Assembly (NCBI GenBank): GCA_023248155.1
Contig: JAHFFE010000001.1
Coordinates: 212,873-276,872, forward strand
DNA: 64,000 nucleotides
From: Candidatus Omnitrophota bacterium
GTDB taxonomy: Bacteria > Omnitrophota > Gorgyraeia > 1-14-0-20-64-10
Reading direction: 5' to 3'
Part shown: positions 7,988 to 63,703 of the stretch, in pieces
How positions within the stretch are numbered: position 1 is the stretch's first letter
Layout of the letters: every line of letters starts with the position of its first letter
Program-made: the position numbers and the translations under genes
Notes under the pieces: generated by a model
What the model was told of the DNA's origin: nothing
Seen by the model: only the letters and a program-made list of their open reading frames with translations
Databases searched by the model: none

Positions 7988-7996
7988 GGCTTTATC

Positions 7997-8185: not shown

Positions 8186-8215
8186 GGCAGTCTTAAAAAT
8201 TTAAAGTAGTTTATC

Positions 8216-26736: not shown

Positions 26737-26750
26737 AAGGAGAAAATAAT

Positions 26751-27281: not shown

Positions 27282-27285
27282 ACCG

Positions 27286-35433: not shown

Positions 35434-35500
35434 ATAAACGGAATTATTCGATTTGACCAGCGAAAATATATTTTTAGGCATGAAAGGTGAGTAGATTAAA

Positions 35501-45384: not shown

Positions 45385-45392
45385 AAGCAGTT

Positions 45393-46124: not shown

Positions 46125-47286
46125 ACGAACTTCAAAATGAACTGGATGAACTCGACCGTCAGGGACTGCGCCGGTTCTGGCGATGCGTCGAAGCAGTTGA
46201 TGGTGGTCGGATTTTAATCGACGGCCAATGGCGCGTTCATATGGCCTCCAACAATTATTTGGGGTTGGCGGCCCATCCTCGCGTGGTAGCCGCTGCGCGC
46301 GAAGCGCTGGAACAGTATGGCGCGGGCGCCGGGTCGGCGCGATTGATCGGCGGAACTTTTCCGCCGCATGAACAGCTGGAAGAAGAACTGGCCCGGTTTA
46401 AACAAGCGGAAGCAGCGATTGTTTTTCCAACCGGGTATATGGCCAACCTCGGCATTATTACCACGCTGACCGGCCCTGAAGATCTGCTGATCGGTGATCG
46501 GCTGAACCATGCCAGCTTGATTGACGCCTGCCGGCTCAGCCGCGCGTCGTTTCGCGTTTATCCACACCTCGACGCAGAGAAGCTCAACGACCTTTTAAAA
46601 CAGCGCCGCGCGAAATACCGGCGCGTTCTGATTATCGCCGAAGGACTTTTTTCAATGGATGGCGACTGCTCGCCGTTAAAGGAAATTTCGGAACTGGCGC
46701 GCCAGTACGATGCCTGGTTGATGATCGACGATGCGCACGGCACCGGTGTTCTGGGAAAAACCGGTCGCGGTTCTCTGGAAGCGGCCGGTGTTTCTCCCGA
46801 CGGAATTTTGCAAATGGGAACGCTGTCGAAAGCAATTGGTTCGGTCGGCGGATATTTAGCCGGGCCTAAGGCGGCTGTTGAGCTGATCAAGAACAAGGCC
46901 CGTTCATTTATTTTCACGACGGCATTACCGCCGGCCTGCGCGGCTGCGGCGCACGAAGCGCTGCGCGTGATCCAGCAGGAACCGGCTATACGGGAACAAC
47001 TTTGGAATAATGTGCGGCACTGGACGCAGGGCTTGAAAAAAATGGAGCTTCCGCTGGTTTCGGACAACAGCCCGATCGTTCCGGTGCAGGTGGGCGACAA
47101 CCGTTTGACGATGGAAATTGCGCAGTCGCTTTTTGAGCAGGGTGTTTACGCGCCGGGCATCCGTCCCCCGACGGTACCCGAAGGCCAGGCGCGCATCCGC
47201 ACCAGCGTGACGGCGCTGCATACGCCGGATGATTTGGATAATGCGCTGAAAGTTTTTGAAAAAACAATAGGGGTGATTCACCGATA

Positions 47287-47287
<1 letters not shown>
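46121..47287 (+). CDS. bioF: 8-amino-7-oxononanoate synthase
   Basis: MNELQNELDELDRQGLRR...; PLP Lys region GTLSKAIGSVGGY; start overlaps the SDR stop (ATGA). Confidence 0.9.
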
Positions 47288-50746
<3,459 letters not shown>

Positions 50747-50778: not shown

Positions 50779-52377
50779 ATGAAAAATCCAATTGTAAAAA
50801 ATAAAACTAACCGCATCTTATTTACGCTGTTGTTTTTGGGATTAATCGCCACGAGTGTATCTGCCGATACAGTTGAGCTGGTGACTTATTATCCGACCGA
50901 GTCCAACGGCCAGTTTGACCGCAACCATGCCCGGCGTTCGACAGTGGGGTCAGCCTATTCACCCGATACGATTACCGATGCCGCTGTCCCCGATGGGACG
51001 CTGCTGGTTTCGGAGAGGCTTGGAATTGGGATAACCGCGCCGCAATTCCCACTCGATATTTACCGCAGTGCTGATGAGGCCTATCTGCGCGTGATGGGCG
51101 TTGGCAACGGTTTGGCCCCGGAAAACTTTGCTGGGATCGAGTTGGACAGCGATCTTCCGGTCAACGGTGTTCCCGATTACAAATGGCAGCTGGTGCATAA
51201 ACGGGGCGGCGCCGGCGGGGAGAACGATTTCCACATTACTTTTTACGATCCAACTATCCCGGCCTGGCGGGTATGGCTGGCTATTCGGAAAAACGGCAAT
51301 GTCGGCATTGGCAACGTACCGTTCCCGGATGAAAAATTGCAGGTGAACGGCAATATCCGGATGCCTAACACCTTTGTCGACGGACTGGGTGTGGCCACGG
51401 CCGGCGTGATCTACAGCGACACGACGCGGTTTATTCATAACTTCGGTTCGAACAATACATTCATGGGTGTGGAATCCGGCAACTTTACGACGGCCGGAAC
51501 CGGGTTTAATTCCGGCTATGGCCAGCGTACACTGATGAACGTGACCACCGGGTTTTTTAACGCGGCGGTGGGTGCTGGATCACTCACTTCGAATACCGTT
51601 GGCTCCGACAATACAGCGGTTGGCACCAGTTCGCTAACCTCCAACAACACCGGTAATAATAATGTGGCGGTCGGTTATCAGGCGCTGTTGAGCAATATCA
51701 GCGGCAGCAACAATGTGGCGGTTGGAACTCAGGCCGGCGGCAACGCCGGGGGCAACCAGAACATTTTTATCGGTGTTCAGGCCGGTTTGAACGAAGCCGG
51801 CAACGACAAGCTGTACATTGAAAACTCCAGCTCAGCCAACCCATTAATCTACGGTGATTTTTCCACCGATACGGTCCGGATCAACAATCATTTAGGAATA
51901 GGCACCAGTGTCGTGGGTGGCACGAATGCGCTGGCGATTGCCAATGGAATCGAGCCGGCTACCAACCCTGCCGGCCAGATTCAGCTGTTTGCCAAAAATG
52001 TTTCCGGCACATCAAAACTGTGGGTGATTGATGGAGCCGGTTTTTCGTCAACGATTTCACCGCATAACTTCTCACTGATTCCATCGGGCGCCAGCGAGCC
52101 GCTGGCGTGGGCATTTTATTCGGAACGCGCCGGCCATGCCGTTAATGTCGATATGCTGCGCGCCATCCGCGTCCTTGAAAATTTATCCGGCGAGCAGCTG
52201 GTTTATCTAAAAAATCTTCGCACCCATCAAGACGAAAGTTCCCGTTTAACCAGCCCGGTTGTTCCCTCGCTTGAAAAAGAAATTCAACAGCTGAAAGCCG
52301 ACAACGAAAAACTGCAGAAGCAGGTTGATGACCTTAAAAGATCAGTCGACGCGTTGGCGCGAAACTCCCGCCGGTAA
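50779..52377 (+). CDS. Secreted fibre-like protein, divergent paralog with C-terminal coiled coil
   Basis: ...SVSA|DTVELVTYYPTESNGQ...; NRFIHNFGSNN and NTAVG/NTTG repeats; C-term EKEIQQLKADNEKLQKQVDDLKRSVDAL. Confidence 0.8.
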   Translation: MKNPIVKNKTNRILFTLLFLGLIATSVSADTVELVTYYPTESNGQFDRNHARRSTVGSAYSPDTITDAAVPDGTLLVSERLGIGITAPQFPLDIYRSADEAYLRVMGVGNGLAPENFAGIELDSDLPVNGVPDYKWQLVHKRGGAGGENDFHITFYDPTIPAWRVWLAIRKNGNVGIGNVPFPDEKLQVNGNIRMPNTFVDGLGVATAGVIYSDTTRFIHNFGSNNTFMGVESGNFTTAGTGFNSGYGQRTLMNVTTGFFNAAVGAGSLTSNTVGSDNTAVGTSSLTSNNTGNNNVAVGYQALLSNISGSNNVAVGTQAGGNAGGNQNIFIGVQAGLNEAGNDKLYIENSSSANPLIYGDFSTDTVRINNHLGIGTSVVGGTNALAIANGIEPATNPAGQIQLFAKNVSGTSKLWVIDGAGFSSTISPHNFSLIPSGASEPLAWAFYSERAGHAVNVDMLRAIRVLENLSGEQLVYLKNLRTHQDESSRLTSPVVPSLEKEIQQLKADNEKLQKQVDDLKRSVDALARNSRR

Positions 52378-52383: not shown

Positions 52384-53085
52384 GTGAGTAAGGAAAAATT
52401 CGTCCACCGTTTGTTTGATACAATCACTCCGCGCTATGACCTATTCAACCGCGTCGGCAGTCTCGGCATGGATCACAGCTGGCGGAGAAAAACAATCCAG
52501 GCGCTTCAACTGAAACCGGAAATGCGCGTACTTGATTTAGCCAGCGGCACCGGTGATTTGGCGCGCGACTGCGCGGCTGAGTTAGCGCCGCTGGGGAAAG
52601 TAGTCGCTTGTGATCTTTCTCTGCAGATGCTTTCACGGGCCGTCAAGCGGCTGGCGGTTTTTCCGCCGGCGCGCTGGCACGTCAGCTACGCGCAGGGAAG
52701 GGCCGAAAACCTGCCGTTTAACCCAGCCACTTTTGACGCCGCCACTATGGCGTTTGCTCTGCGCAATGTTTCCGATTTGGATGCCACTTTTGGCGAATAC
52801 CATCGTACGATGCGTCCCGGCGCTCATTTGGCATTGCTGGAGTTCGGCCGGCCAACCAATTTTTTCGTGCGCGCGGGCCACTGGCTCTGGCTCTCAACCG
52901 CTATTCCTCTGTTTGGTTTTTTAACGACCGGCTTGTTCTGGCCGTTCCTTTATTTGCGCCGATCAATACTGCAATTTATGCCGCCGGAGCAGGTGGTTAA
53001 AAAACTGCAAAACGCCGGTTTTGGCGAAGTCTCCGCCACTCGCTTAAGCGGCGGGATTGTGGTTCTCTACCAGGCTATTCGTTAA
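52384..53085 (+). CDS. menG: Demethylmenaquinone / ubiquinone-menaquinone C-methyltransferase (UbiE/MenG family)
   Basis: FDTITPRYDLFNRVGSLGMDHSWRRK and VLDLASGTGDLA SAM-binding motif. Confidence 0.85.
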   Translation: MSKEKFVHRLFDTITPRYDLFNRVGSLGMDHSWRRKTIQALQLKPEMRVLDLASGTGDLARDCAAELAPLGKVVACDLSLQMLSRAVKRLAVFPPARWHVSYAQGRAENLPFNPATFDAATMAFALRNVSDLDATFGEYHRTMRPGAHLALLEFGRPTNFFVRAGHWLWLSTAIPLFGFLTTGLFWPFLYLRRSILQFMPPEQVVKKLQNAGFGEVSATRLSGGIVVLYQAIR

Positions 53086-53119: not shown

Positions 53120-55864
53120 ATGAGATCCAATAACCGCCTAACAGGGCGATTTTTATTTGCCCGAATTTTAAGCGCTTTGTTGATCGTTAGCATTGCGCTG
53201 CCGCCTTCGTCTGTCTACGCCTTGCGTCCGCTCGCGGGCCGCGAATCCGGGATGGAAGAAAACCTTACGAACAAATTGCGTCCTGTCACTGGGCAGGAGG
53301 AACGGATCGTGGTACGCATCAATCCGGTGACGGAAGCTCCGGAGTGGCGCCTGGAAACGGAGTTCCGCGTTTCTCCTGAATCACAAAGCATCCGTGATTT
53401 GTTAAGCCAGCCGAATCCATCTTCTGCCGATTGGTATCGTCATGATCCGAAGGAGAAGCTGGATCGTTTGGCGGAGCTGTTTCAGGCCGGATTTGATTAC
53501 TATGCTCGCTGGATTCCTTTGTCCGGAGGAGCCCTCGTTTATTATGATGCAAGCCCACTGCTGGCTTATCTGAAGCAAGAATTCCAATGGGCCGCTTCGA
53601 CGGAAACAACCCAGCTCAATCGCATGCAATATACGCACCTGGTGAACACAATAGTCACTCAGCTGTTTCATCCGAACCGGCGTTCGCTGCTCTCTTTCCC
53701 GGATGCAAACGACCACTCGCGCGTCATTGAAAAAGATTTGACGGAAGATTGGCGGGCAATCCCTTACCTGGATGGACGAATCCCTGTTTGGGAAGCGGCT
53801 TCCAAGCCGGGTGAGCGCAATCCCGGATTTTTCACGGTGGAGGGGTGGCACCAAGGCCCGTTTGCGGTGCACGGGTCTCATTCGGATCCGTATTGGATGC
53901 AGGTTCCGTTGGAGGAATATCCGAAGCGGTTAGTTCAACCCATTGCAGCATTGTTTACTCGGCTGAGGAATTCTCCGGCAGATTTCAGGCGCTATTTTGG
54001 AACATTGACCACTCAGTTAGAAGAAAGAGCTCACGCGGAGGACGAGGTGTGGGCGTATCGGTTTCACGGAAGCGTTTTTCCATCCACCCAGTATACAGAC
54101 CATCTTATTGCAGATGCGATTCTCCGCCCGAATTCTAGGGCTGATCGGTTATGGACGAGTCAAAAACAAGCCCACTTAAGAAACGGAGAATTCTTTGATT
54201 CGGCCGGCAATTTTATAGAATTTTCCGGACAATTGAAACGGCTGATCCGGGTGATCGAAGCGGTCTACGCTGAAAAACCGGAACCAGAGGCTGATCCCTG
54301 GGCGTTGGCACTCTTTTTGGAATACGCAATCGACCAGTATGAGAATGGCGTCAAAGCGGCGAAAGGAACATGGACGCCCTATCCGCGTGAGATTTCTCAG
54401 TGGTTTATAAGCCTTTTGGTTGAGCAAGGTCTTCCAAGGGAAGTTCTGGGAACTGGCAGAAAATTTCAAGACGGGTTATGGAACGAACTCAATACGCATC
54501 AATCGGGCGAAGCAGCGATTTCCGGCCGCAAGGCGCTGGCTTGGGCGAAGAATATGCAGCGGTCTTTCTATATAACGGAGGAAGAGCGAATAGATCTTTT
54601 AAATCAGGGGCCCCCCGTTGCGGCCGGACAGGAGGAGAAGCCGGAGGAATTCCCAACGGAGCACGACTCGAAATTCTTTGAAAAGCTGGGGGAACCGCAG
54701 TGGGGTTTCGAACCCAAAGAATGGGCGGGGCTCTGGTATCTGCTTGACGGAAAAGTGCCGCAAAGTCTGGACGGTACGCTGGATGAATTGAATCATGGAA
54801 TCAGACTCCACGCGGATTCAAAGAATTTCTGGGGATCTAAAGACGCGGAGTTCGCACAGAAATTGATACACAAACTATACGACCGGATTCGGAACCAATA
54901 TGGACTTGAATGGAATGATTGGCGTTTATTCTTTGATCTGACGAATGGAAATATTCTGGCCGATTCACAGAGGTTAAGCGTTGTCCTTGACGTGATGATC
55001 TCAAGAAAAACACGGTTTGTTTCTGAGACCCCGCTTACCCCAATTGAATTAACCATGGTCCATTCGTTGCGCGATAGGCTTCAGCAGTCTGAACCGCTGC
55101 CGATAGATCCGAGAATGCGGGATTTCCCGGCTGTTTCTACGGAAAAACAGGTCGCGATGGGGAATTTTGCCAATTTTATTATAGCCGTTACGCTTTTAGG
55201 CGCGGGGTGGTTTTACGCGCGTCAGGCCCAGAATGGAGGTGGAGTCGTCCAGCCGGATAACGCGCCGGCGCCGGCTGTTATAAAACCGCGACAACGACAG
55301 TCGGTTCCAGCCGAATATTTTCGTTTTAAGTGGGAAGGCGAGGGGCCGATTGCCGAGGTGGATGGAGAACGGGTTGATTTCAACGACTGGGATAAATTGG
55401 GCGAGGCGCTTTCTCAGGAACAGGTAGATCTCTTTTTGCGGGAGCAGGAAGGGGCCGAGAGCTGGCTGGTGCCCGTAGACGCGGCGCTGCCGATTAATCG
55501 GGCGATCCATGTTTTTGACCAGGTGGGGATTCCTTCTCAACAGCTGCCGCAGAATCTGAACTATTTTAATTTAAGCCAGGATGCGGCCGCGGAAGTGACG
55601 CCCGATTTGCTGGCGCAGGGCATTAAAGACGGCGATGTTGTGATTCTTCGCGCCGATCAGGTAACGCCGGAAGGGGCCAAGAACCTGATTCCGGAAGGGA
55701 TTAAAGCGCGCGTGGTTTTGTTAACGCCGCTCATGCTTAAGCAACTATCGGCCCGGCAGTTGCTGTTCGTGGCGACTCAGCTTGATCCGGGTGAAACGCT
55801 GTATATCCAGCACCTCTCTTCCGTCACTCTTGAAAGCCAGCGCTACCTGCTGATTGCCGCCTAG
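53120..55864 (+). CDS. Giant secreted/membrane protein 2 (915 aa), paralogous N-terminus to the 1542 protein, with two (A/T)GQEE(R/K) motifs and an internal TM helix
   Basis: MRSNNRLTGRFLFARILSALLIVSIALPPSSVYALRPLAGRES...TGQEER aligns with ITGRLWALILVIALALPNPALALRPTGLEES...AGQEER of the first protein; second motif AAGQEEKPEEF; TM FANFIIAVTLLGAGWFYA. Confidence 0.8.
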   Translation: MRSNNRLTGRFLFARILSALLIVSIALPPSSVYALRPLAGRESGMEENLTNKLRPVTGQEERIVVRINPVTEAPEWRLETEFRVSPESQSIRDLLSQPNPSSADWYRHDPKEKLDRLAELFQAGFDYYARWIPLSGGALVYYDASPLLAYLKQEFQWAASTETTQLNRMQYTHLVNTIVTQLFHPNRRSLLSFPDANDHSRVIEKDLTEDWRAIPYLDGRIPVWEAASKPGERNPGFFTVEGWHQGPFAVHGSHSDPYWMQVPLEEYPKRLVQPIAALFTRLRNSPADFRRYFGTLTTQLEERAHAEDEVWAYRFHGSVFPSTQYTDHLIADAILRPNSRADRLWTSQKQAHLRNGEFFDSAGNFIEFSGQLKRLIRVIEAVYAEKPEPEADPWALALFLEYAIDQYENGVKAAKGTWTPYPREISQWFISLLVEQGLPREVLGTGRKFQDGLWNELNTHQSGEAAISGRKALAWAKNMQRSFYITEEERIDLLNQGPPVAAGQEEKPEEFPTEHDSKFFEKLGEPQWGFEPKEWAGLWYLLDGKVPQSLDGTLDELNHGIRLHADSKNFWGSKDAEFAQKLIHKLYDRIRNQYGLEWNDWRLFFDLTNGNILADSQRLSVVLDVMISRKTRFVSETPLTPIELTMVHSLRDRLQQSEPLPIDPRMRDFPAVSTEKQVAMGNFANFIIAVTLLGAGWFYARQAQNGGGVVQPDNAPAPAVIKPRQRQSVPAEYFRFKWEGEGPIAEVDGERVDFNDWDKLGEALSQEQVDLFLREQEGAESWLVPVDAALPINRAIHVFDQVGIPSQQLPQNLNYFNLSQDAAAEVTPDLLAQGIKDGDVVILRADQVTPEGAKNLIPEGIKARVVLLTPLMLKQLSARQLLFVATQLDPGETLYIQHLSSVTLESQRYLLIAA

Positions 55865-55885
55865 AGTTATGATATTCTGTTGGGT

Positions 55886-57325
55886 ATGGCCTATCGAAAC
55901 CTTTCCGAATTTATCGCCGATTTGGAGCGCCGCGGCGAACTTAAACGCGTTTCTGTTCCGGTTGATCCTACCCTTGAAATTACCGAAATTGCCGACCGCC
56001 TGATTAAATCCAACGGCCCCGCGCTGTTATTTGAAAAAGTAAACGGTTCCTCAATTCCTCTGGCGATCAACCTGTTCGGCACAAAATCACGGATGGAGCT
56101 TGGCCTGGGCGTTAAGGATTTAAATGAGATTGCCAAGCGGATTGAACAGTTGATGGAAATTCCCAACCCAACCGGGTTGATGGAAAAATTAAGTTTGCTT
56201 CCCAAGTTGGCCGAGTTGGGGAATTTCCCGCCGAAGATCGTCTCGAAAGCGCCCTGCCAGGAAGTAGTGATTAAAGACAACCCCTCATTAAATTTACTGC
56301 CGATTTTGCAGTGCTGGCCCGATGATGCCGGCAAATATATCACGCTTGGCTCGACGATTACGCGCAACAAACAAAGCGGCCGCCGCAATGTGGGGCTGTA
56401 CCGCCTGCAGGTATTCGACGACAAAACGCTGGGCATGCACTGGCAGCCGCACAAAGACGGCGCTTCGCATTGGCGAGGATACGCGCCCGGCGAGAAAATG
56501 CCGGTGGCGATTGCATTGGGCGGAGACCCGGCCACCGTTTATGTCGGGTCGGCGCCGCTGCCGGAAGGAATCGACGAATATTTCTTCGCCGGTTTTCTGC
56601 GCAACGAGCCGGTCGAACTGGTGAAATGCGTCACCGTTGATTTGGAAGTTCCGGCGCAGGCCGAGATTATTATTGAAGGGTTCGTCACGGTGGGCGAACG
56701 GCGCGAAGAAGGCCCGTTCGGCGATCATACCGGTTATTATTCGTTGCCGGAACCGTACCCGGTCATGAAAATAACGGCAATCACGCACCGCAAAAATGCT
56801 GTCTATCCGACCACGATTGTCGGCATCCCCCCGATGGAAGATGTCTGGCTGGGCAAGGCGACCGAGCGGATCTTTCTGCCGCTGATCCAAAAAATTCTTC
56901 CCGAGATCGTTGATATGAATTTCCCGCCGGAAGGCACTTTTAATAACGCGGTCATCGTCTCGATCAAGAAAAGTTATCCGGGCCAGGCGCGCAAGGTGGT
57001 GCATGCGCTCTGGGGGCTGGGGCAGGTGATGTTTACGAAAGTGATCATTGTTGTGGATGACTGGGTCGATGTGCAGAATGTCGCGCAGGTTGCCTGGCTT
57101 GGTTTTATGAACATTGATCCGCAGCGTGACTGTTTTTTTGTGGAAGGGCCGGTCGATACGCTCAACCATGCGTCGCCGCAATGGAACTTTGGATCCAAAA
57201 TGGGCGTCGATGCCACCGAGAAATTACCCGAAGAAGGCCACCCGCGCGGATGGCCCGATGTCATTACGATGTCTGCCGAGATAAAGGAGAAAGTCACCCG
57301 CCGTTGGGCCGAATACGGCTTATAA
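55886..57325 (+). CDS. UbiD-family decarboxylase (menaquinone-biosynthesis decarboxylase, MqnL-like)
   Basis: MAYRNLSEFIADLERRGELKRVSVPVDPTLEITEIADRL ... typical UbiD N-terminus; ~480 aa. Confidence 0.88.
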   Translation: MAYRNLSEFIADLERRGELKRVSVPVDPTLEITEIADRLIKSNGPALLFEKVNGSSIPLAINLFGTKSRMELGLGVKDLNEIAKRIEQLMEIPNPTGLMEKLSLLPKLAELGNFPPKIVSKAPCQEVVIKDNPSLNLLPILQCWPDDAGKYITLGSTITRNKQSGRRNVGLYRLQVFDDKTLGMHWQPHKDGASHWRGYAPGEKMPVAIALGGDPATVYVGSAPLPEGIDEYFFAGFLRNEPVELVKCVTVDLEVPAQAEIIIEGFVTVGERREEGPFGDHTGYYSLPEPYPVMKITAITHRKNAVYPTTIVGIPPMEDVWLGKATERIFLPLIQKILPEIVDMNFPPEGTFNNAVIVSIKKSYPGQARKVVHALWGLGQVMFTKVIIVVDDWVDVQNVAQVAWLGFMNIDPQRDCFFVEGPVDTLNHASPQWNFGSKMGVDATEKLPEEGHPRGWPDVITMSAEIKEKVTRRWAEYGL

Positions 57326-57335: not shown

Positions 57336-58844
57336 ATGAGTCAGATTTCCCGGAAAGTTATCTATCCAGCTATCTTCTTCGCGATTTTTTTGGCCGCGTC
57401 GACTGTTTTCGCGGAGACCGTGGAGATTGTCACCTATTTTCCGACTACCGGCGGCAATAACGAACATGTGAATGATTTAACGGTAGGGCCGGGTTTTTTG
57501 GGCGAAAACCCCGCCAATGGCGTAGCACTGATTGAAACCCGGCTCGGGATTGGCACCAATGATCCACAGCAACAGCTGCATATCACGGGCAACCTAAGGA
57601 TTCCATCGACCACCGCTGTGGGCGGAGTTCCTTCCGGCGGTGTTATTTTTTCTGACACAACCCGGTTTATTCACCGTTTTGGGAGCGGCAATTTCTTCGC
57701 GGGGACCGCCGCGGGCAATTTCACGCTGACCGGTTCCTCGAATATCGGGATAGGCACGAATGCGATGCAGAGCCTGACGAACGGAATTCAAAATGTCGCG
57801 GTGGGCTCTCGCGCCATGGAACTTAATACCAGCGGCCAGAGGAATTCGGCGTTTGGGATGGAGAGTCTGAATAATAATACGACGGGCGGTTTGAACACGG
57901 CGCTGGGGCATAATACGCTTTTTTTTAATCAGACCGGATTTAATAACACCGCGGTAGGCTATCAGGCTTTGCTGAACACGACGGGAAGCGATAACGTGGC
58001 TGTGGGCCAAAACGCCGGATCGGCTCTGTTGGCGAATGCGAACACGACCGGATCAGGCAATACGTTTATAGGAACTCGATCGGGTTCCGGGGTGGCCGCG
58101 CAATTGACCAACGCGACCGCGCTTGGATTTGAAGCGCTGGTCTCGGCCAGCAACGCGCTGGTGCTGGGCGGCACTGGCGCCAACGCGGTGAGCGTAGGGA
58201 TTGGAACTGAAACACCGCAGGCGACATTGGATGTCACTTCCGATGGCGGAACGATTCTGGTGCCTCGAAAAAGCACGGCCGGTGATCCGGCCGTAGGCGT
58301 CAACGGCATGATCTACTACAACGCCAACGCGCAGCAGTTCCGTTTTCATCAAAATGGGGCATGGCAGTCTCTTGATGGAGGATGGAGGCTGATTTTCCGG
58401 GATGACTTTCAAGCCAATGCCAACGGATGGGCTCCAGCAACGAGGACCAATATTGGAGGGGCCACGATCCTGGGTGGGTTTAGTACCGCAGGCAACGGAA
58501 CGACTTTAACAAGGAATTTTGATCTTACCGGTATTGCCCACACTCAGATTAAAGTTGAACTGGATTATTATGCCATTGACAGCTGGGACGGTGAATTTGG
58601 GTTTGTCTTCGCCGCGGGCGCGGCGGGTAGTTCCAGAAATATATGGGCCGAACGAATCAATCAGTTCGACCCCGGACGGATCAACTTCGGTGGGGCAGCC
58701 AACCGGACAGACGGTGTTTACCATGCTCTGTTAACCGGCTCGCATTCCACTAATACGCTGACTGTATCCGCGGGATGCACCTTGGATCAGGCGAGCAACG
58801 ACGAATCCTTTGGAATAGACAATGTGGAGGTTTGGGTCCGATAG
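57336..58844 (+). CDS. Secreted fibre-like protein, paralog family (type-B N-term)
   Basis: ...TVFA|ETVEIVTYFPTTGGNNEHVNDLTVGPGFLGENP; ~85% aa identity over the first ~290 aa with the 34066 product, divergent C-terminus. Confidence 0.85.
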   Translation: MSQISRKVIYPAIFFAIFLAASTVFAETVEIVTYFPTTGGNNEHVNDLTVGPGFLGENPANGVALIETRLGIGTNDPQQQLHITGNLRIPSTTAVGGVPSGGVIFSDTTRFIHRFGSGNFFAGTAAGNFTLTGSSNIGIGTNAMQSLTNGIQNVAVGSRAMELNTSGQRNSAFGMESLNNNTTGGLNTALGHNTLFFNQTGFNNTAVGYQALLNTTGSDNVAVGQNAGSALLANANTTGSGNTFIGTRSGSGVAAQLTNATALGFEALVSASNALVLGGTGANAVSVGIGTETPQATLDVTSDGGTILVPRKSTAGDPAVGVNGMIYYNANAQQFRFHQNGAWQSLDGGWRLIFRDDFQANANGWAPATRTNIGGATILGGFSTAGNGTTLTRNFDLTGIAHTQIKVELDYYAIDSWDGEFGFVFAAGAAGSSRNIWAERINQFDPGRINFGGAANRTDGVYHALLTGSHSTNTLTVSAGCTLDQASNDESFGIDNVEVWVR

Positions 58845-58865
58845 GTTCCTAATGGAGGTTTTGAA

Positions 58866-60773
58866 ATGGCAAAAACTCGCGCCGGTAAATATCCTGTTCT
58901 TTTTGTTGTTGCTTTGATCGGTTTAATTGCCGGGTATGCGTTCGCGGAAACCGTTGAATTGGTGACTTATTACCCGAGCAGCGGCGGAGGCGGCACCGAC
59001 CCGCAAGTGAATTCGATTCGGGTGGGAAGCGGCTACGCCGGGAGCGCGGTTCCGGCCAACGGAGAGGTGCTTATCGAAGGGAACATCGAGTTGCCTGCTA
59101 CGACCGCGACCGCGGGTGTTATCTTCTCTGGCCCCAACCGGTTCATCCATAATTTCGGAACCGACAATTTCTTTGCTGGAGTTAACGCCGGCAATTTCAC
59201 AATGACGGGTGCCGATAATGTCGGGGTTGGGGCGAATTCACTTTTTTCAAACACCACAGGCCGCGACAACACCGCGGTCGGTTTCAACTCGCTAAGGGCG
59301 AATACCATAGGAGCCCAAAACACAGCCATAGGGCAAGAGTCTCTGTTGGCAAACACCGTTGGTACTGGCAACACGGCGGTAGGACAGGAGTCTCTTAAGG
59401 CAAATACGACCGGAAATGCCAACACGGCGATGGGAGAAAATTCTCTGGCGGACAACACGGGCGGAAACAACAACACAGCGGCAGGAGATCATTCTCTGCA
59501 GCGAAACAGGACCGGAAGCGGTAACACGGCGGTAGGACAGGAATCTCTGCAGGAGAACACAACCGGTAGCAACAACACGGCGGTTGGAGTCAGCGCCCTC
59601 AACGCCAACACGACTGCCATTGCGAATACCGCCGTGGGAAGTCGCGCGTTGATGGCCAACACGACCGGCACCGGCAACACGGCGCTGGGGGTTGGCGCTT
59701 TGCAAGCCAACACGCTTGGGAATAATAATACGGCGCTGGGGGTTAACACTTTAGAAGCTAACACGACTGCCATTGCGAATACCGCCGTGGGAAGTCGCGC
59801 GTTGATGGCCAACACGACCGGTACCGTTAACACGGCCGTGGGGGTCGGCGCTTTGGAAATCAACACGACCGGCAGCTGGAACACCGCGGTGGGGGTTAAT
59901 GCGCTTACGAGTAACAATCCAACCCTGGCGACGAATGGGTTCCGGAATACGGCCGTCGGTTCGAGCGCCCTGCAAGACAACACGACCGGTTATCAGAACA
60001 CCGCGGTTGGGTTTAACGTTTTGCCGGCCACCACGACCGGTTATCAGAATACCGCGGTCGGGTCTGGGGCTATGCCGGCCACTACAACCGGTTTTCGGAA
60101 CATCGCCATTGGCAACAACGCCATGCCTAACAATGTGGGAGGCGCTTCGAATATTGCTATTGGCGATTCCTCACTTTCGGGTAATGTGGGCGGCAGCCTC
60201 AATACAGTGGTTGGGCATGAAGCCGGAGTGACTGTAAACAATCTTACTCATGCCACCGCCATTGGCGCCGACTCGAGGGTGTCTGCCAGCAATTGTATTG
60301 TTCTTGGTACAAACACAGATACCGTTTGTATTGGTTTGAATGCGCGTACCAATGCCACTTATAGACTCCAGGTCAACGGTATTGCCGCTAAGAATGGGGG
60401 AGGAAGCTGGACGAACTCCACTTCCGATGCCAGGCTTAAAGAAAACATCAGGCCTTTTAAAGATGGCTTGACTGTGCTGCAAAAGATTAATCCCGTCACC
60501 TATCAATTAAACGGCAAAGGCGGTTTACCGAAGGGCGGGGAAGACATTGGTGTTATTGCGCAGGATGTGAAAGATGTGATTCCTTATACGATTGGGACTT
60601 TCAAAGCGAAATTAAATCCTGATGATAGAGAAGAAACCGAGCTTTATAACTATAATGATACCGCATTGACCTATGTTTTGATCAATGCGGTCAAAGAACT
60701 CAAGACGGAAAACGACCAGCTGCGCCAAGATTTGAACCAGCTGCGGGAAGAAGTTGCCCAGCTTAAAAAATAA
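58866..60773 (+). CDS. Secreted fibre-like protein, paralog family (type-B N-term) with long NTAVG-repeat shaft and C-terminal intramolecular-chaperone (peptidase S74-like) domain
   Basis: ...GYAFA|ETVELVTYYPSSGGGGTDPQVNSIRVG; >25 tandem ~14-aa NTAVG/NTTG repeats; C-term SDARLKENIRPFKDGLTVLQKINPVTYQLNG...IGVIAQDVKDVIPY...coiled coil. Confidence 0.85.
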   Translation: MAKTRAGKYPVLFVVALIGLIAGYAFAETVELVTYYPSSGGGGTDPQVNSIRVGSGYAGSAVPANGEVLIEGNIELPATTATAGVIFSGPNRFIHNFGTDNFFAGVNAGNFTMTGADNVGVGANSLFSNTTGRDNTAVGFNSLRANTIGAQNTAIGQESLLANTVGTGNTAVGQESLKANTTGNANTAMGENSLADNTGGNNNTAAGDHSLQRNRTGSGNTAVGQESLQENTTGSNNTAVGVSALNANTTAIANTAVGSRALMANTTGTGNTALGVGALQANTLGNNNTALGVNTLEANTTAIANTAVGSRALMANTTGTVNTAVGVGALEINTTGSWNTAVGVNALTSNNPTLATNGFRNTAVGSSALQDNTTGYQNTAVGFNVLPATTTGYQNTAVGSGAMPATTTGFRNIAIGNNAMPNNVGGASNIAIGDSSLSGNVGGSLNTVVGHEAGVTVNNLTHATAIGADSRVSASNCIVLGTNTDTVCIGLNARTNATYRLQVNGIAAKNGGGSWTNSTSDARLKENIRPFKDGLTVLQKINPVTYQLNGKGGLPKGGEDIGVIAQDVKDVIPYTIGTFKAKLNPDDREETELYNYNDTALTYVLINAVKELKTENDQLRQDLNQLREEVAQLKK

Positions 60774-61617
60774 ATTCAAGGATATCGTCGAAGCGCTGCG
60801 GCTGGAGCATACCATTTTCGCTTTGCCATTTGCCTATGTGGGTGTTTGGGCCGCTGCCGAGGGGAATCCGTCGTGGCGCGTCGTCGGGTGGGTCACATTG
60901 GCGATGGTCGGCGCGCGCACGGCCGGCATGGCACTCAACCGTCTCATCGACCTTCCGATTGACCGAAAAAACCCGCGCACGAAAAACTGGCCGGTTCCAT
61001 CGGGCCGCGTGAAACCATCACTATTAATTTTATTAACAACTGCGGCACTCGCAATTTTCCTCGTGGCCGCCTGGAAGCTCAATCCACTCTGCGCGAAGCT
61101 CTCGCCAGTGGCGCTGGTACTTCTGGTGCTCTACCCGACGATGAAGCGGTTTACATGGGCCTGCCATTTCTGGCTGGGACTGGTTTTGGCATCGGCTCCC
61201 GCGGCCGGATGGCTGGCCGTAACCGGAAAAATGGAGCTGGAATTGATCCCGCTTTTTCTGGGCGTCTTTTTTTGGGTGTCAGGATTTGATATTCTTTACG
61301 CGCTGCTGGATATTGACTTCGACCGACGGGAAGGGGTATACTCGATTCCTGGGCGTTTTGGTCTTTCGCCCGCCTTGTGGATCTCCCGAAGTGCCCATTT
61401 AATGGCGCTATTGGCATTTGGATGGTTTGGGATCGTTATGGAATTTCGAGGCTGGTTTTGGGCAGGCTGGCTGTTGATCGCCGGGCTTTTGACTTATGAG
61501 CACCGGCTGGTAGGCCCGGGCCGTCTGGAAAAAATCAACAAGGCGTTTTTTACGGTCAATGGTTGGGTCAGCGTTCTTTTCTTTTTATTCACCTGGCTGG
61601 AGTTGACGATGCAATGA
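60754..61617 (+). CDS. UbiA-family prenyltransferase (menaquinone/4-hydroxybenzoate polyprenyltransferase, MqnP-like)
   Basis: TTG start; NRLIDLPIDRKNPRTKNWPVPSGRV Asp-rich motif; 8-9 TM helices; overlaps the 3' end of the upstream fibre gene. Confidence 0.85.
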   Translation: MPSLKNKFKDIVEALRLEHTIFALPFAYVGVWAAAEGNPSWRVVGWVTLAMVGARTAGMALNRLIDLPIDRKNPRTKNWPVPSGRVKPSLLILLTTAALAIFLVAAWKLNPLCAKLSPVALVLLVLYPTMKRFTWACHFWLGLVLASAPAAGWLAVTGKMELELIPLFLGVFFWVSGFDILYALLDIDFDRREGVYSIPGRFGLSPALWISRSAHLMALLAFGWFGIVMEFRGWFWAGWLLIAGLLTYEHRLVGPGRLEKINKAFFTVNGWVSVLFFLFTWLELTMQ

Positions 61618-63116
61618 GAAGCTTATTTGCCTGGAAAGCAGGGGTTGTCTTCTTTCTGTTGGCGGGTTGGGTTGTGCCCGCGGCCTTCGCGGAAACTACA
61701 GAGATTGTTACCTATTACCCAACCAGCGGCGGCGGCAACGAACATCTGAATGATTTGACGGTAGGGCCCGGCTATTTGGGCGAAAACCCCAATAATGGCG
61801 TTGCGCTCATTGAAACCGCTTTGGGGATTGGCACGAATAATCCGCAGGATCAGCTGGAACTTACGGAGAATTTAAGGCTTCCTCCGACCACGGCGACGAC
61901 CGGCATCATCAAGTCCGGCGCCAACCGGTTCATCCATAACTTCGGCGCCAGCAACTTCTTCGCCGGTGTGAATGCGGGCAATCTCACGTTGACGGGCTCC
62001 GCGAATGTTGGGATAGGCATTAACGCGATGCAGAGTTTAACCAATGGAACTCAAAATGTCGCTGTGGGGCCTCGCGCGATGGAGAGCACGACCAGCGGGC
62101 AGAGGAATTCCGCGTTTGGCATGGAGAGTCTGAATAATAATACGACGGGCGGTTTGAACACGGCGCTGGGGCATAATACGCTTTTTTTTAATCAGACCGG
62201 ATTTGATAACACCGCGGTAGGCTATCAGGCTTTGCTGAACACGACAGGCAGCGATAACGTGGCCGTGGGCCAAAACGCCGGATCGAATTTGTTGGCGAAC
62301 GCGAACACGACCGGATCGGGCAATACGTTTATTGGGACCCGATCGGGTTCCGGGGTGGCCGCGCAATTAACCAACGCGACCGCGCTTGGATTTGAAGCAT
62401 TGGTCTCGGCCAGCAACGCACTGGTGCTGGGCGGCACCGGCGCCAACGCAGTCAATGTGGGGATCGGAACGGAAACGCCCAGCGCCACGCTGGATGTGAA
62501 CAGTGGCTCGGTTCGGGTTTCCCGCGATGCTTCTGACGCGGCGGCTTCCGCGGCTCCGCAGAATGGGATGGTCTACTACAACACCACTACGAATAATTAC
62601 CGCGCGTACCAAAACGGCAGGTGGGTGGAGTTGTCTCCAGCCAGACCCAGTGTTTACGTCAATGCGGCCAGCTCGCAGATGCTGTTTAGTACGACTTATG
62701 CGGACGACTCTGAGCTTCAGGTGACGATAGGTCCCGGCGAAAGATGGCAGTTTGAAATTGTCGCTGTCGTCAAGGTTTATGTGGATACGGATCTCAAATT
62801 CAAGTTTACAGGTCCCGGTACCAGCGTGCTCGGGGACATTATAGCGCTCGCGACGATGTTCAAAACCGGAAATGCGGCAGGCGGCCCCGGTGTTGCTTCC
62901 ACTAGTTATTGGTCCTGTATTTTTGATGCTTATACGGATGCGCAGGTGGTGGACTTTACTACCGATGGTTTTGTGCATATCTTTATTACGGGAGAACTTC
63001 GCAACAGCGCGGCGACGGCCGGCACTTTTCACATTCAATGGGCGCTGCGCAACCCTCCCGGCGGAAATGCCTCTGTTTGGAGAGCCCGGTACCTCCGGGC
63101 TACGCGTACCGCATGA
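61614..63116 (+). CDS. Secreted fibre-like protein, paralog family (type-B N-term)
   Basis: MRSLFAWKAGVVFFLLAGWVVPAAFA|ETTEIVTYYPTSGGGNEHLNDLTVGPGYLGENP; start overlaps the ubiA-like stop (ATGA) and stop overlaps the ubiX-like start (ATGA). Confidence 0.85.
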   Translation: MRSLFAWKAGVVFFLLAGWVVPAAFAETTEIVTYYPTSGGGNEHLNDLTVGPGYLGENPNNGVALIETALGIGTNNPQDQLELTENLRLPPTTATTGIIKSGANRFIHNFGASNFFAGVNAGNLTLTGSANVGIGINAMQSLTNGTQNVAVGPRAMESTTSGQRNSAFGMESLNNNTTGGLNTALGHNTLFFNQTGFDNTAVGYQALLNTTGSDNVAVGQNAGSNLLANANTTGSGNTFIGTRSGSGVAAQLTNATALGFEALVSASNALVLGGTGANAVNVGIGTETPSATLDVNSGSVRVSRDASDAAASAAPQNGMVYYNTTTNNYRAYQNGRWVELSPARPSVYVNAASSQMLFSTTYADDSELQVTIGPGERWQFEIVAVVKVYVDTDLKFKFTGPGTSVLGDIIALATMFKTGNAAGGPGVASTSYWSCIFDAYTDAQVVDFTTDGFVHIFITGELRNSAATAGTFHIQWALRNPPGGNASVWRARYLRATRTA

Positions 63117-63703
63117 TGGAACACCCGATTATCGCGATCACCGGCGCGTCCGGTTCGGCTTACGCGATCCGCGTTCTGCAGGTGCTGATTGAACAGCGGC
63201 GCGAGCCGTATGTGGTAGTCAGCGCGGCGGGCCGGCAGGTGATGGCGATCGAGCTGGGTTCCGGTGATTTGAAAGAACATTTGGGTGCGGCGGGTTGGCG
63301 CGAAGAAGACGCGCGCGATTTTACCTCACCGCTGGCCAGCGGCTCGTTCCCGACGGCAGGCATGGTGATTATGCCTTGCTCGATGGGCACGCTGGGCGCT
63401 GTCGCGCACGGCATTTCGGCCAATTTAATTCACCGCGCCGCCGATGTTCATTTGAAAGAACGGCGGCCGTTGATTGTCGTTCCGCGCGAAACGCCGGTCT
63501 CAACGATCGGTTTGCAGAATATGCTGACGCTTTCGCAGGCGGGTGTAACGGTGGTTCCGGCCAATCCCGGTTTTTATCATAATCCTCAGTCGGTGCAGGA
63601 CCTGGTTGATTTTATGGCGGCGCGAGTTTTGGATTTAATGAAAATTCCGCATTCGCTTTCCAAGCGCTGGACCGGCATGCCGGTTTTTAACGAAACGGAG
63701 TAA
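63113..63703 (+). CDS. ubiX: Flavin prenyltransferase UbiX family (MqnM-like)
   Basis: MMEHPIIAITGASGSAYAIRVLQVL...MVIMPCSMGTLGAVAHGIS flavoprotein signature. Confidence 0.88.
   Translation: MMEHPIIAITGASGSAYAIRVLQVLIEQRREPYVVVSAAGRQVMAIELGSGDLKEHLGAAGWREEDARDFTSPLASGSFPTAGMVIMPCSMGTLGAVAHGISANLIHRAADVHLKERRPLIVVPRETPVSTIGLQNMLTLSQAGVTVVPANPGFYHNPQSVQDLVDFMAARVLDLMKIPHSLSKRWTGMPVFNETE

What the first reader, a model, noticed from the sequence alone, without database searches (positions are those of the whole stretch)
57336..63116. Fibre-family genes are interleaved inside a futalosine-type menaquinone operon with overlapping stop/start codons
The order is menG/ubiE (52384) - giant protein 2 - ubiD-like (55886) - fibre 57336 - fibre 58866 - ubiA-like (60754, overlapping the fibre 3' end) - fibre 61614 (ATGA overlap with the ubiA stop and ATGA overlap with the ubiX start) - ubiX-like - radical SAM mqnC/E-like. 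Conserved late-step menaquinone genes (MqnP/L/M-like plus MenG) are normally contiguous. Here accessory surface-protein genes are threaded between them and translationally coupled to them. Similar wedging occurs after sucCD (fibres 32375-36886), around tldD/pmbA, and on both flanks of the biotin locus. This implies co-transcription of surface fibres with core metabolism, or repeated insertion of family members into operon junctions.
Basis: partly seen in the sequence, partly recalled or inferred. Interest (0 to 1): 0.75.

Follow-up and report, generated by a model that had tools for sequence, protein, structure and literature searches.

The report
Surface-fibre genes wedged into housekeeping operons
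An uncultured Omnitrophota bacterium carries ten phage-tail-fibre-like surface protein genes slotted between tightly packed housekeeping genes, including inside its menaquinone operon; related genomes have these slots empty or filled differently, so they are insertion hotspots and not a functional link to menaquinone synthesis.

Summary
UbiD, UbiA and UbiX, which are contiguous with 4-nt overlaps in most syntenic relatives with this stretch in view, are separated here by three intact genes of one paralog family (57336-58844, 58866-60773, 61614-63116). A fourth (50779-52377) sits between bioD-bioA and menG. Gaps are +10, +21, -20, -4 and -4 nt.

The family has 10 members, 24% of the window. Each has a signal peptide, an invariant mature N-terminus (AETxE[IL]VTYYP), a phage tail-spike-like repeat shaft and a different C-terminal tip. 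At least one tip is an S74 chaperone domain with an intact catalytic motif.

At least one syntenic relative lacks fibres at nine of the ten positions; the tenth has no comparator. Other relatives carry non-orthologous fibres, toxin-antitoxin pairs or large unknown proteins in the same slots. One splits pheS from pheT.

No transposon signature flanks the genes. The three closest paralogs are much less diverged at synonymous sites than orthologues in fibre-free relatives. One tip looks recently exchanged between lineages.

Best reading: hypervariable slots for surface fibres resembling the mosaic adhesive trimer (MAT) fibres of Bdellovibrio, expressed by read-through. A functional link to menaquinone is not supported. 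Co-transcription and adhesion are inferred. Interest is moderate; this is a new variant of known kinds.

The parts
50779..52377 (+). Fibre paralog F50779 (532 aa) between bioD-bioA and menG. It has the N-terminal anchor module, a repeat shaft and a coiled-coil C-terminus.
   Evidence: blastp paralogy; PHROG tail-spike hits; absent at bioDA|menG in L005. Gaps are +32 and +6 nt.
52384..53085 (+). menG/ubiE methyltransferase (backbone gene)
   Evidence: Pfam Ubie_methyltran, E 6.5e-45
53120..55864 (+). Accessory protein of about 914 aa with an 'ALRP...GMEE' leader. It occupies the variable menG|UbiD slot.
   Evidence: No Pfam hit. The leader motif is shared with the slot occupants in L004, L005 and L146. 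The slot is empty in L006 and L049.
55880..57325 (+). UbiD-family decarboxylase (MqnL-like), backbone gene
   Evidence: Pfam UbiD_N, UbiD and UbiD_C; 78-82% identical to Omnitrophota relatives
57336..58844 (+). Fibre paralog F57336 (502 aa): signal peptide, AETVEIVTYFP anchor module, shaft, and a beta-rich tip with no S74 domain
   Evidence: precomputed Pfam label PF26696 PTL_trimer; orthologue in L141 (69% in the blastp, 71%); own GGAGAG Shine-Dalgarno sequence 10 nt after the UbiD stop
58866..60773 (+). Fibre paralog F58866 (635 aa): anchor module, long NTAVG-repeat shaft, and an S74 intramolecular chaperone with an SDARLK motif at residue 520
   Evidence: Pfam Peptidase_S74, 3.8e-15; PHROG tail spike, 8.9e-73; motif; PDB hit 6f45, a phage long tail fibre
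60754..61617 (+). UbiA prenyltransferase (MqnP-like), backbone gene. Its TTG start lies inside the last 20 nt of F58866.
   Evidence: Pfam UbiA, 4.3e-57; N-terminus aligned to relatives; gene call in L001
61614..63116 (+). Fibre paralog F61614 (500 aa). It has ATGA overlaps at both ends. Its tip is shared (about 81% aa) with a chimeric fibre in L141.
63113..63703 (+). UbiX flavin prenyltransferase (MqnM-like), backbone gene
   Evidence: Pfam Flavoprotein, 8.7e-44; start from the gene call and alignment to relatives
32375..36886 (+). Three fibre paralogs (32375-34069, which has an S74 domain; 34066-35433; 35501-36886) in the sucD|pmbA slot
   Evidence: The slot is empty in L062 and holds non-orthologous fibres in L149 and L151.
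39817..41364 (+). Fibre paralog F39703 with a Gly_rich_2 tip. It is the first gene of the long plus-strand array and is divergent from tldD.
   Evidence: The slot is empty in L061, L062 and L149.
42786..44300 (+). Fibre paralog F42786 in the ATP-grasp|bioB slot
   Evidence: In L006 and L062 the slot holds large unrelated proteins of 808 and 1632 aa.
16216..17595 (-). Fibre paralog F16216, downstream of lptF-lptG on the minus strand
   Evidence: No syntenic relative was available for this slot.

Best explanation
The window comes from an Omnitrophota genome whose housekeeping genes form long, co-directional, nearly gap-free arrays. A clade-specific family of secreted trimeric-fibre-like proteins has repeatedly been inserted, duplicated and replaced at a limited set of junctions in these arrays. 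Each fibre has a signal peptide, an invariant AETxE[IL]VTYYP N-terminal anchor module, a phage tail-spike-like repeat shaft and an interchangeable C-terminal tip, with or without an S74 chaperone.

The junctions include ones that are 4-nt stop/start overlaps in relatives (UbiD|UbiA and UbiA|UbiX). The inserted genes bring or acquire their own ribosome-binding site or a stop-start overlap. They lack detectable promoters and terminators, so they are most likely expressed by read-through from the housekeeping transcription units.

Their position beside menaquinone genes is incidental. The slots are hotspots for accessory cargo in general: fibres, toxin-antitoxin pairs and large leader-bearing proteins.

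By architecture the proteins resemble the Bdellovibrio mosaic adhesive trimer (MAT) fibres and phage receptor-binding proteins. Their probable role is cell-surface recognition of, or attachment to, other cells, with the tip repertoire diversified by module swapping.

Shown here: paralogy, architecture, junction anatomy, slot variability among relatives, relative ages, and the absence of transposon hallmarks. Inferred: co-transcription, secretion and trimerisation, the adhesion function, and the recombination mechanism.
For: Family and architecture:
- There are 10 paralogs sharing an N-terminal module with 10 invariant positions.
- PHROG tail-spike, tail-fibre and chaperone hits.
- Pfam S74 and Gly_rich_2 tips; SDARLK motif.
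- The family profile hits the MYRF S74 domain in the PDB.
- Shafts are 92-100% identical among three paralogs while their tips are unrelated.

Insertion and turnover:
- UbiD-UbiA-UbiX is contiguous with overlaps in L002, L005, L146 and L010, and UbiA-UbiX in L147.
- L062 has sucD|pmbA and tldD|ATP-grasp without fibres.
- L145 (UbiA 82-83% identical) has a different fibre plus a 226-aa gene before UbiA.
- L148 has a fibre plus an MNT/HEPN pair at UbiD|UbiA and another fibre at polyprenyl synthase|sirohaem synthase.
- L004 has an MNT/HEPN-like pair at UbiD|UbiA.
- L149 and L151 have non-orthologous fibres at sucD|pmbA with ATGA/GTGA overlaps.
- L150 has two fibres between pheS and pheT.

Relative age:
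- Paralog cores have pS 0.29-0.41, against 0.70-0.76 (saturated) for UbiD orthologues in fibre-free relatives.
- The F61614 tip versus the L141 tip has pS 0.30 (0.21-0.38), against 0.62 (0.56-0.67) for the neighbouring orthologous fibre.

No mobile-element signature:
- Paralog DNA homology starts about 75 nt inside each CDS and ends near codon 300, with no flanking repeats.
- No tRNA lies nearby.

Co-transcription:
- Gaps run from -20 to +32 nt in the menaquinone block.
- Promoter-like and terminator-like counts equal shuffled expectation, and none lies at a junction.

Analogue and assembly:
- MAT family description (PMC10769870).
- An independent ENA contig is 100% identical over 7,296 nt.
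Against: - No transcript data exist. Promoters inside upstream coding sequence, or non-sigma-70 promoters, would be missed by the scan.
- In L150 the inserted fibres have their own upstream region and terminator, so read-through is not universal.
- The direction of change (gain or loss) is inferred from a handful of MAG contigs without a species tree. Fibres upstream of menG occur in the window, L003, L146 and L148, so that slot may be ancestral.
- The low pS among paralog cores could reflect gene conversion and not recent duplication.
- Homology of the N-terminal module to the Bdellovibrio MAT N-domain was not testable.
- The AlphaFold2 monomer model was poor (pLDDT 60.6) and gave no significant fold matches.
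- The adhesion function rests on analogy only.
Confidence: 0.7

Rival explanations
1. There is functional coupling. The fibres are deliberately co-regulated with menaquinone or respiratory-chain biogenesis, for example so that surface fibres are made only when the cell is respiring. On this view selection keeps them inside the menaquinone operon.
For: Stop/start overlaps and tiny gaps would enforce co-expression. Several relatives also have fibres somewhere in the menG-mqn-haem supercluster (L145, L146, L148).
Against: The positions inside the cluster differ in every genome, and several close relatives have none. The same family sits beside sucCD, tldD, biotin, lptFG and pheST genes. The same slots also take toxin-antitoxin pairs and unrelated large proteins.
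Confidence: 0.08
2. Ancestral interleaving with differential loss. The common ancestor already had fibres at all these junctions, and the fibre-free relatives lost them by deletion, for example by recombination between the conserved shaft sequences.
For: Fibres upstream of menG occur in four lineages (window, L003, L146, L148). The sucD|pmbA slot is occupied in three (window, L149, L151). The F57336-F58866 tandem and its spacer are conserved in L141.
Against: Clean loss would have to recreate exact GTGA overlaps between UbiD/UbiA and UbiA/UbiX in several lineages. More distant genomes such as Omnitrophus fodinae (L010) are contiguous. Occupants of a shared slot are not orthologous. Paralog cores are much younger (pS 0.29-0.41) than the split from fibre-free relatives.
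Confidence: 0.15
3. The fibres are cargo of a dedicated mobile element, such as integron-like cassettes, IS-mediated transposition, or a prophage or tailocin remnant.
For: An IS200-type Y1 transposase lies next to the fibre trio in L149. The proteins are phage-like. A 2026 preprint reports hypervariable or integration loci overlapping housekeeping operons in Omnitrophota.
Against: The window has no integrase, transposase or other phage structural gene. There are no direct or inverted repeats flanking the genes. Spacers of -20 to +21 nt leave no room for attC-like sites. No tRNA lies at the sites.
Confidence: 0.05
4. Assembly or binning artefact. Repeated fibre sequence (81-88% nt identity over about 800 nt) caused chimeric joins that spliced fibre genes between real neighbours.
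For: The paralogs share long similar stretches, and the genome is a metagenome assembly.
Against: A separately recorded ENA contig is 100% identical over 7,296 nt with the same order. All ORFs are intact with in-frame overlaps, and the junctions lie outside the repeated stretch. Independent genomes show the same kind of interleaving.
Confidence: 0.02

Closest known systems
Mosaic adhesive trimer (MAT) fibre superfamily of Bdellovibrio bacteriovorus (Caulton et al. 2024, PMC10769870)
   Same: Both are a multi-member, cell-encoded family of phage-tail-fibre-like proteins. Each has a signal peptide followed directly by a family-invariant N-terminal domain, a beta-helical repeat shaft and diverse C-terminal tips. 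Both divide into S74-chaperone and non-S74 members with an SDxxxK motif. The host organism is a (putative) predator or epibiont.
   Different: The conserved N-module here is shorter (about 60-75 aa against about 130 aa), and its homology to the MAT N-domain was not testable. No localisation or binding data exist. The genes here are wedged into housekeeping operons. One search returned nothing on MAT gene neighbourhoods, so I cannot say whether that is also true of MAT genes.
Phage receptor-binding proteins: tail fibres and tailspikes with an S74 intramolecular chaperone (K1F endosialidase, T5 pb1, T4-type distal fibre)
   Same: Shaft repeats and the C-terminal chaperone domain match PHROG tail-spike and tail-fibre families, Pfam PF13884 and PDB 6f45. 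The design is modular, with a conserved N-terminal attachment part and swappable tips.
   Different: These are chromosomal genes with Sec-type signal peptides. No baseplate, sheath, tube or capsid gene lies nearby, so this is not a prophage or tailocin.
Replacement-type flexible genomic islands or hypervariable slots flanked by conserved core genes (for example O-antigen or capsule loci). Hypervariable regions overlapping housekeeping operons have also been reported in Omnitrophota (bioRxiv 10.64898/2026.06.07.730766).
   Same: Conserved flanks have variable, non-orthologous surface-structure cargo at the same position in different genomes. There is evidence for lateral module exchange. The preprint notes variable loci entangled with housekeeping operons in this phylum.
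   Different: The slots here are single-gene-sized junctions inside operons, down to 4-nt overlaps, and many are dispersed over about 47 kb; this is not one large island. The comparison with O-antigen-type islands rests on my general knowledge, not on a test here.

Membership tests
Futalosine-type menaquinone late-step cluster (MenG, UbiD/MqnL, UbiA/MqnP, UbiX/MqnM, then MqnE/MqnC radical SAM and MqnA/D) | Presence of the UbiD, UbiA and UbiX family genes plus the ubiE/menG methyltransferase | tested here: met
   Pfam hits with E 1e-43 to 1e-83
Futalosine-type menaquinone late-step cluster (MenG, UbiD/MqnL, UbiA/MqnP, UbiX/MqnM, then MqnE/MqnC radical SAM and MqnA/D) | Adjacent futalosine-specific genes (VitK2_biosynth MqnA/D; CofH_C-type radical SAM MqnC/E) | tested here: met
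   Precomputed Pfam labels on the identical contig L001 downstream of UbiX. The same order occurs in L002, L004, L005 and L146.
Futalosine-type menaquinone late-step cluster (MenG, UbiD/MqnL, UbiA/MqnP, UbiX/MqnM, then MqnE/MqnC radical SAM and MqnA/D) | Enzymatic specificity for menaquinone and not for ubiquinone intermediates | not testable with these tools
   Family-level homology only
Bdellovibrio MAT (mosaic adhesive trimer) superfamily | Signal peptide directly followed by a family-conserved beta-rich N-terminal domain | tested here: inconclusive
   A hydrophobic leader ending A-x-A is followed by an invariant AETxE[IL]VTYYP module in all 10 paralogs. Homology to the MAT N-domain could not be tested: no MAT N-domain sequence or structure was available, and afdb50 was offline.
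Bdellovibrio MAT (mosaic adhesive trimer) superfamily | Trimeric beta-helix or prism shaft related to phage tailspikes | tested here: inconclusive
   Sequence homology to PHROG tail-spike and tail-fibre families and the precomputed PF26696 'PTL_trimer' label support this. Trimerisation was not tested, and the monomer model had low confidence.
Bdellovibrio MAT (mosaic adhesive trimer) superfamily | Variable C-terminal tips, split into S74 (SDxxxK) and non-S74 members | tested here: met
   S74 domains in F58866 (SDARLK) and F32375 (SSIRWK variant). F39703 has Gly_rich_2. The other seven tips are mutually unrelated.
Bdellovibrio MAT (mosaic adhesive trimer) superfamily | Display on the predator cell surface and binding of prey surface glycans | not testable with these tools
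   Needs microscopy or binding assays
Prophage or tailocin (phage-tail-like particle) locus | Fibre genes accompanied by baseplate, tube, sheath, tape-measure or capsid genes | tested here: not met
   All neighbours are housekeeping or unknown genes. No phage structural Pfam hits were found.
Integron or transposon cassette array | Integrase or transposase plus recombination sites or terminal repeats flanking each cassette | tested here: not met
   There is no such gene in the window and there are no flanking repeats. Spacers run from -20 to +109 nt. Only L149 has an IS200-type gene nearby.

The most novel reading that the evidence does not exclude
Omnitrophota may run a distributed, promoter-less 'tip-swapping' system. 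On this reading, MAT-like host-recognition fibres are kept pressed against highly conserved housekeeping genes for two reasons. The operons supply constitutive transcription. The conserved core gene on one side and the conserved fibre shaft on the other supply the homology arms for exchanging tips or whole fibres between diverged strains by homologous recombination. The operon junctions would then be selected cassette sites that set host or prey range, not merely tolerated insertion points.
Probability: 0.15. Interest if true: 0.8.

Novelty: new variant of a known kind. Interest (0 to 1): 0.5.

Why it matters
Omnitrophota are uncultured ultra-small bacteria suspected of predatory or host-dependent lifestyles. 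How they recognise partners is unknown, and discussion so far centres on giant proteins.

A dense family of phage-receptor-binding-protein-like fibres, with a common anchor and interchangeable tips, is a concrete candidate for that recognition machinery. It takes up 24% of this 64-kb stretch. It parallels the Bdellovibrio MAT fibres.

The genomic pattern also shows that junctions as tight as 4-nt stop/start overlaps inside conserved operons can act as recurrent insertion hotspots in compact genomes. This matters for operon-based function prediction: guilt by association would wrongly link these fibres to quinone synthesis. It also matters for interpreting hypervariable regions in this phylum.

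The value is limited because everything rests on metagenome assemblies. Expression, localisation and function are all inferred.

Tried and rejected
- **Structure.** AlphaFold2 on F57336 with a 45-sequence alignment gave mean pLDDT 60.6 and a disordered tip. Foldseek against the PDB gave no match with E <= 0.001; the top CBM32 and TNF-like hits had E > 0.09 and were treated as meaningless. afdb50 was not available.
- **Family libraries.** NCBIfam found nothing for any fibre. My Pfam copy lacks PF26696 'PTL_trimer', so I could not examine that label, and a literature search for it found nothing.
- **N-module search with the word-indexed tool.** It returned only short fragments, one of them named Omnitrophota. 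Cluster look-up of ten family representatives returned no organism names.
- **Promoter and terminator scan.** Counts did not differ from shuffles, so it is uninformative about independent transcription. A second scan request exceeded the size limit.
- **tRNA and Rfam scans.** Only five tRNAs were found, far from the fibres.
- **Homopolymer phase variation.** I considered and dropped this for the window genes. The only long runs are T8 tracts at homologous codons of three paralogs.
- **ATGA at both ends of F61614 as a target-site duplication.** I considered and rejected this. ATGA/GTGA overlaps are the norm throughout this genome and its relatives, and UbiX's start was remodelled.
- **More distant shaft homologues.** L152 and L153 have other N-terminal modules and ordinary contexts, so they say nothing about this family.

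Full report
**1. What is in the sequence**

Pfam scans of all large ORFs give a compact, almost entirely plus-strand map of housekeeping genes:
- enolase, PTS genes, pgi, metK and ahcY;
- lptFG (minus strand);
- gltA-mdh-sucCD;
- pmbA-tldD (minus strand);
- a biotin cluster (bioB, SDR, bioF, unknown, bioD-bioA fusion);
- menG, UbiD, UbiA and UbiX.

An ENA contig that is 100% identical over 7,296 nt continues with radical-SAM/CofH_C, VitK2_biosynth, radical-SAM/CofH_C, polyprenyl synthase, sirohaem synthase and ccsA.

Between these genes lie ten ORFs with few or no Pfam hits that are paralogs of each other (blastp):
- 16216-17595 (minus strand);
- 32375-34069, 34066-35433 and 35501-36886;
- 39817-41364 and 42786-44300;
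- 50779-52377;
- 57336-58844, 58866-60773 and 61614-63116.

Together they are 15,411 nt, 24% of the window.

**2. The junctions**

The order is bioDA, F50779, menG, a 914-aa unknown, UbiD, F57336, F58866, UbiA, F61614, UbiX. The gaps are +32, +6, +34, +15, +10, +21, -20, -4 and -4 nt.

F57336 and F58866 each have a good Shine-Dalgarno sequence (GGAGAG, GGAGG). UbiA can only start at TTG 60754, inside the end of F58866. Both ends of F61614 are ATGA overlaps. These match the gene calls stored with the ENA contig.

But 4-nt and 1-nt overlaps are common throughout the window, for example mdh/sucC, sucC/sucD, ptsN/next ORF and pmbA/tldD. The tight packing is a genome-wide property and not a special feature of the fibre/menaquinone junctions.

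**3. What the interleaved genes are**

All ten begin with a hydrophobic leader ending in A-x-A. This is followed immediately by an almost invariant mature N-terminus, A-E-T-x-E-[IL]-V-T-Y-Y-P-T, and a module of about 60 aa with 10 invariant positions.

Next comes a shaft of NTA[VI]G...AL..NTTG-type repeats. It hits PHROG tail-spike and virion-structural families, with E down to 9e-73.

The C-terminal 150-200 aa differ from member to member:
- Peptidase_S74 intramolecular chaperone in F58866 (catalytic SDARLK) and F32375 (SSIRWK);
- Gly_rich_2 in F39703;
- seven other mutually unrelated beta-rich tips.

A family profile hits the S74 domain of MYRF in the PDB, and F58866 hits a phage long-tail-fibre tip.

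F57336, F34066 and F61614 are 92-100% identical in aa over residues of about 100-300, but their tips are unrelated.

A profile of the N-module finds 356 cluster representatives at E <= 1e-10 among 1.84 billion. About half of the best 150 are proteins of 300-680 aa with the module at residues of about 20-90. In the rest, which are giant proteins, only the second half of the module (a GIGT..P...L-type repeat) matches many times.

The architecture is that of the Bdellovibrio MAT fibres: signal peptide, invariant N-domain, beta-helical trimer, variable tip, and S74 and non-S74 subgroups (PMC10769870). I could not test homology of the N-modules.

**4. Which organism**

The closest UbiD and UbiA homologues (62-83% identity) come from MAGs labelled Candidatus Omnitrophota or Omnitrophica. 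Some are auto-labelled Planctomycetia. The window is therefore, by inference, from an Omnitrophota genome. The proteins are recorded on a 381,716-nt NCBI contig.

**5.

Fibre-free relatives:
- With UbiD at 78-82% identity, L002 and L005 have UbiD-UbiA-UbiX-rSAM-VitK2-rSAM-polyprenyl synthase contiguous. The junctions are GTGA overlaps.
- L146 shows the same contiguous order with 4-nt overlaps, as does Omnitrophus fodinae (L010). The short contig L147 shows UbiA-UbiX-rSAM with 4-nt overlaps.
- L005 has exactly the window's backbone (SDR, bioF, unknown, bioDA, menG, a large protein, UbiD, UbiA, UbiX and onward) minus the four fibres.
- A more distant syntenic contig, L062, has mdh-sucC-sucD directly convergent with pmbA-tldD. 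Its tldD is directly divergent from the ATP-grasp gene, and that gene is followed by a 1632-aa unknown and bioB. It therefore lacks the window's five fibres in that stretch. L061 agrees for tldD|ATP-grasp.

So nine of the ten fibres sit at junctions that are fibre-free in at least one syntenic relative. The tenth, next to lptG, had no comparator.

**6. The slots are hotspots, not one-off events**

| Genome | What it carries |
|---|---|
| L145 (nearest relative, UbiA 82-83%) | A fibre with a different tip plus a 226-aa membrane-like ORF just upstream of UbiA |
| L148 | A fibre and an MNT/HEPN pair between UbiD and UbiA; PhdYeFM between menG and UbiD; a fibre before menG; another fibre between polyprenyl synthase and sirohaem synthase |
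| L004 | An MNT/HEPN-like pair at UbiD\|UbiA |
| L146 | Three fibres before menG |
| L149 | Three fibres after sucD joined by ATGA/GTGA/ATGA overlaps, followed by an IS200-type gene |
| L151 | Two fibres plus a fragment after sucD |
| L150 (named Omnitrophota) | Two divergent family members and a DUF6036 gene between pheS and pheT, with their own AT-rich upstream region and a clear terminator |
| L141 | Three fibres in tandem: a chimera (F58866-type shaft with an F61614-type tip), the F57336 orthologue, and an F58866-like gene. The F57336-to-F58866 spacer is conserved |

The L149 and L151 fibres best match F50779 and F58866, not the window's occupants of the sucD|pmbA slot, so the contents of that slot are not orthologous.

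The 'repeated insertion' alternative is supported. It extends to turnover at a limited set of junctions that also accept other accessory cargo.

**7. Relative age and mechanism**

Proportions of synonymous differences (pS), with 95% bootstrap intervals in parentheses where computed:

| Comparison | pS |
|---|---|
| Cores of the three closest paralogs (dN/dS about 0.15-0.18) | 0.29-0.41 |
| UbiA, window against L145 | 0.51 |
| UbiD, window against the fibre-free relatives (saturated) | 0.70-0.76 |
| F61614 tip against the L141 tip | 0.30 (0.21-0.38) |
| F57336 against its L141 orthologue | 0.62 (0.56-0.67) |

The three cores therefore diverged, or were last homogenised, well after the split from the fibre-free lineages. 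Within the window/L141 pair the tip is much less diverged than the adjacent orthologous fibre. This indicates a more recent exchange of the tip module.

DNA similarity between paralogs begins about 75 nt inside each CDS and ends near codon 300. There are no flanking direct or inverted repeats. The window has no integrase or transposase and no tRNA at the sites. The spacers are too short for attC-like sites.

I therefore favour duplication and recombination, homologous within shafts and flanks and illegitimate at junctions, over a dedicated mobile element. This step is inferred.

Fibres have a somewhat lower GC3 than their neighbours (0.58 against 0.65; RSCU r = 0.80). The other accessory proteins are similar. 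This fits weaker codon adaptation, not foreign origin.

**8. Expression**

The sigma-70-like and intrinsic-terminator scans of 48-64 kb give counts equal to shuffled expectation, and no site lies at a junction. From the 103-nt divergent region upstream of F39703 to beyond the window end, no gap exceeds 109 nt.

Read-through transcription, with translation from each gene's own Shine-Dalgarno sequence or by stop-start coupling, is the simplest model. It is not demonstrated, and L150 shows the family can also be an independent unit.

**9. Comparison with the literature**

Full-text searches found no relevant paper that combines Omnitroph* with 'tail fib*'. The main Omnitrophota papers discuss giant proteins as adhesins and do not mention fibres.

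A 2026 preprint reports hypervariable or integration loci that overlap housekeeping (ribosomal-protein) operons in most complete Omnitrophota chromosomes. That is compatible with the pattern seen here.

**10. Verdict**

The 'insertion into operon junctions' interpretation is supported and generalised. The 'co-transcription with core metabolism' reading is plausible but untested. A specific functional link to menaquinone biosynthesis is not supported.

The object is a new variant of known kinds: MAT-like or phage-RBP-like cell-surface fibres, sitting in hypervariable slots between core genes. Interest is moderate (0.5). It offers a concrete candidate for partner recognition in an enigmatic phylum and shows an unusual operon-splitting genome architecture. 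It rests entirely on metagenomic sequence.

Noticed in passing
window 1542-7091 and 53120-55864; L004 5866-9207; L005 6463-9921; L006 1125-3551; L146 4087-6540; L062 3551-8449 (minus strand): There is a second accessory family of large proteins (808-1849 aa). They share only an N-terminal leader: a hydrophobic stretch, then (P)ALALRP, then one or more (S)GLEE motifs (GMEE in window 53120). The L006 and L062 leaders lack ALRP and carry only the GLEE-type motifs. These proteins fill the variable menG|UbiD and ATP-grasp|bioB slots in different genomes. The window's 1849-aa member has WD40 and FHA domains.
   Followed up: partly
L148 4040-4140: The fibre inserted at UbiD|UbiA in this relative has a G8 run inside its signal-peptide codons that breaks the frame. 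Nine Gs would give an intact leader ending in ...SACAETIELVTYYP. This could be a homopolymer assembly error, a pseudogene or a slipped-strand on/off switch.
   Followed up: partly
window 34631-34638, 57919-57926, 62182-62189: T8 runs occur at the homologous LFFN codons of the three closest paralogs. They are three of the five homopolymer runs of 8 or more bases in the window. They are probably just inherited, but they are potential slippage sites.
   Followed up: no
L004 11447-12430; L148 6148-6847 and 1831-2097: Toxin-antitoxin modules occupy the same operon junctions that hold fibres in the window: nucleotidyltransferase/HEPN pairs at UbiD|UbiA, and PhdYeFM at menG|UbiD.
   Followed up: partly
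L149 14474-15070: An IS200/IS605-type Y1 transposase gene lies directly after the three fibres in the sucD|pmbA slot of this relative. It is the only mobile-element gene seen next to any fibre.
   Followed up: no
L150 7395-14855: In a named Omnitrophota MAG, pheS and pheT are separated by two divergent family members (N-termini QETMTLTTYYP and QQTLTLSTYYP) and a DUF6036/DUF2204 gene. There is an AT-rich upstream region and a strong hairpin terminator after the second fibre.
   Followed up: partly
L141 1-1593 compared with window 61614-63116 and 58866-60773: A chimeric fibre carries an F58866-type N-terminus and shaft with an F61614-type tip (about 81% aa). The tip's synonymous divergence is half that of the neighbouring orthologous fibre.
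   Followed up: yes
window 44410-50746: The biotin cluster contains an SDR gene, a conserved 465-aa ORF with no Pfam hit (47287-48684; 58% identical in L005), and a fused bioD-bioA gene (711 aa). The unknown ORF might be a missing pimeloyl-pathway step.
   Followed up: no
window 26200-27858: Three consecutive small genes lie between the glycogen-debranching enzyme gene and gltA. The first and third have prepilin-type N-terminal methylation motifs; the middle one (26751-27281) has no Pfam hit. They are possibly part of a pilus or secretion system that could be relevant to fibre export.
   Followed up: no
window 41385-42773; L061, L062, L063, L149: A conserved protein of about 465 aa is always divergent from tldD in this clade. 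It has only a weak circularly permuted ATP-grasp hit. In the window alone a fibre separates it from tldD.
   Followed up: no
window 7913-8290: Four tRNA genes (Arg-TCG, Lys-CTT, Leu-TAG, Gly-GCC) form a tight cluster upstream of ptsN. A separate tRNA-Met lies at 1340-1416, before the 1849-aa gene.
   Followed up: no
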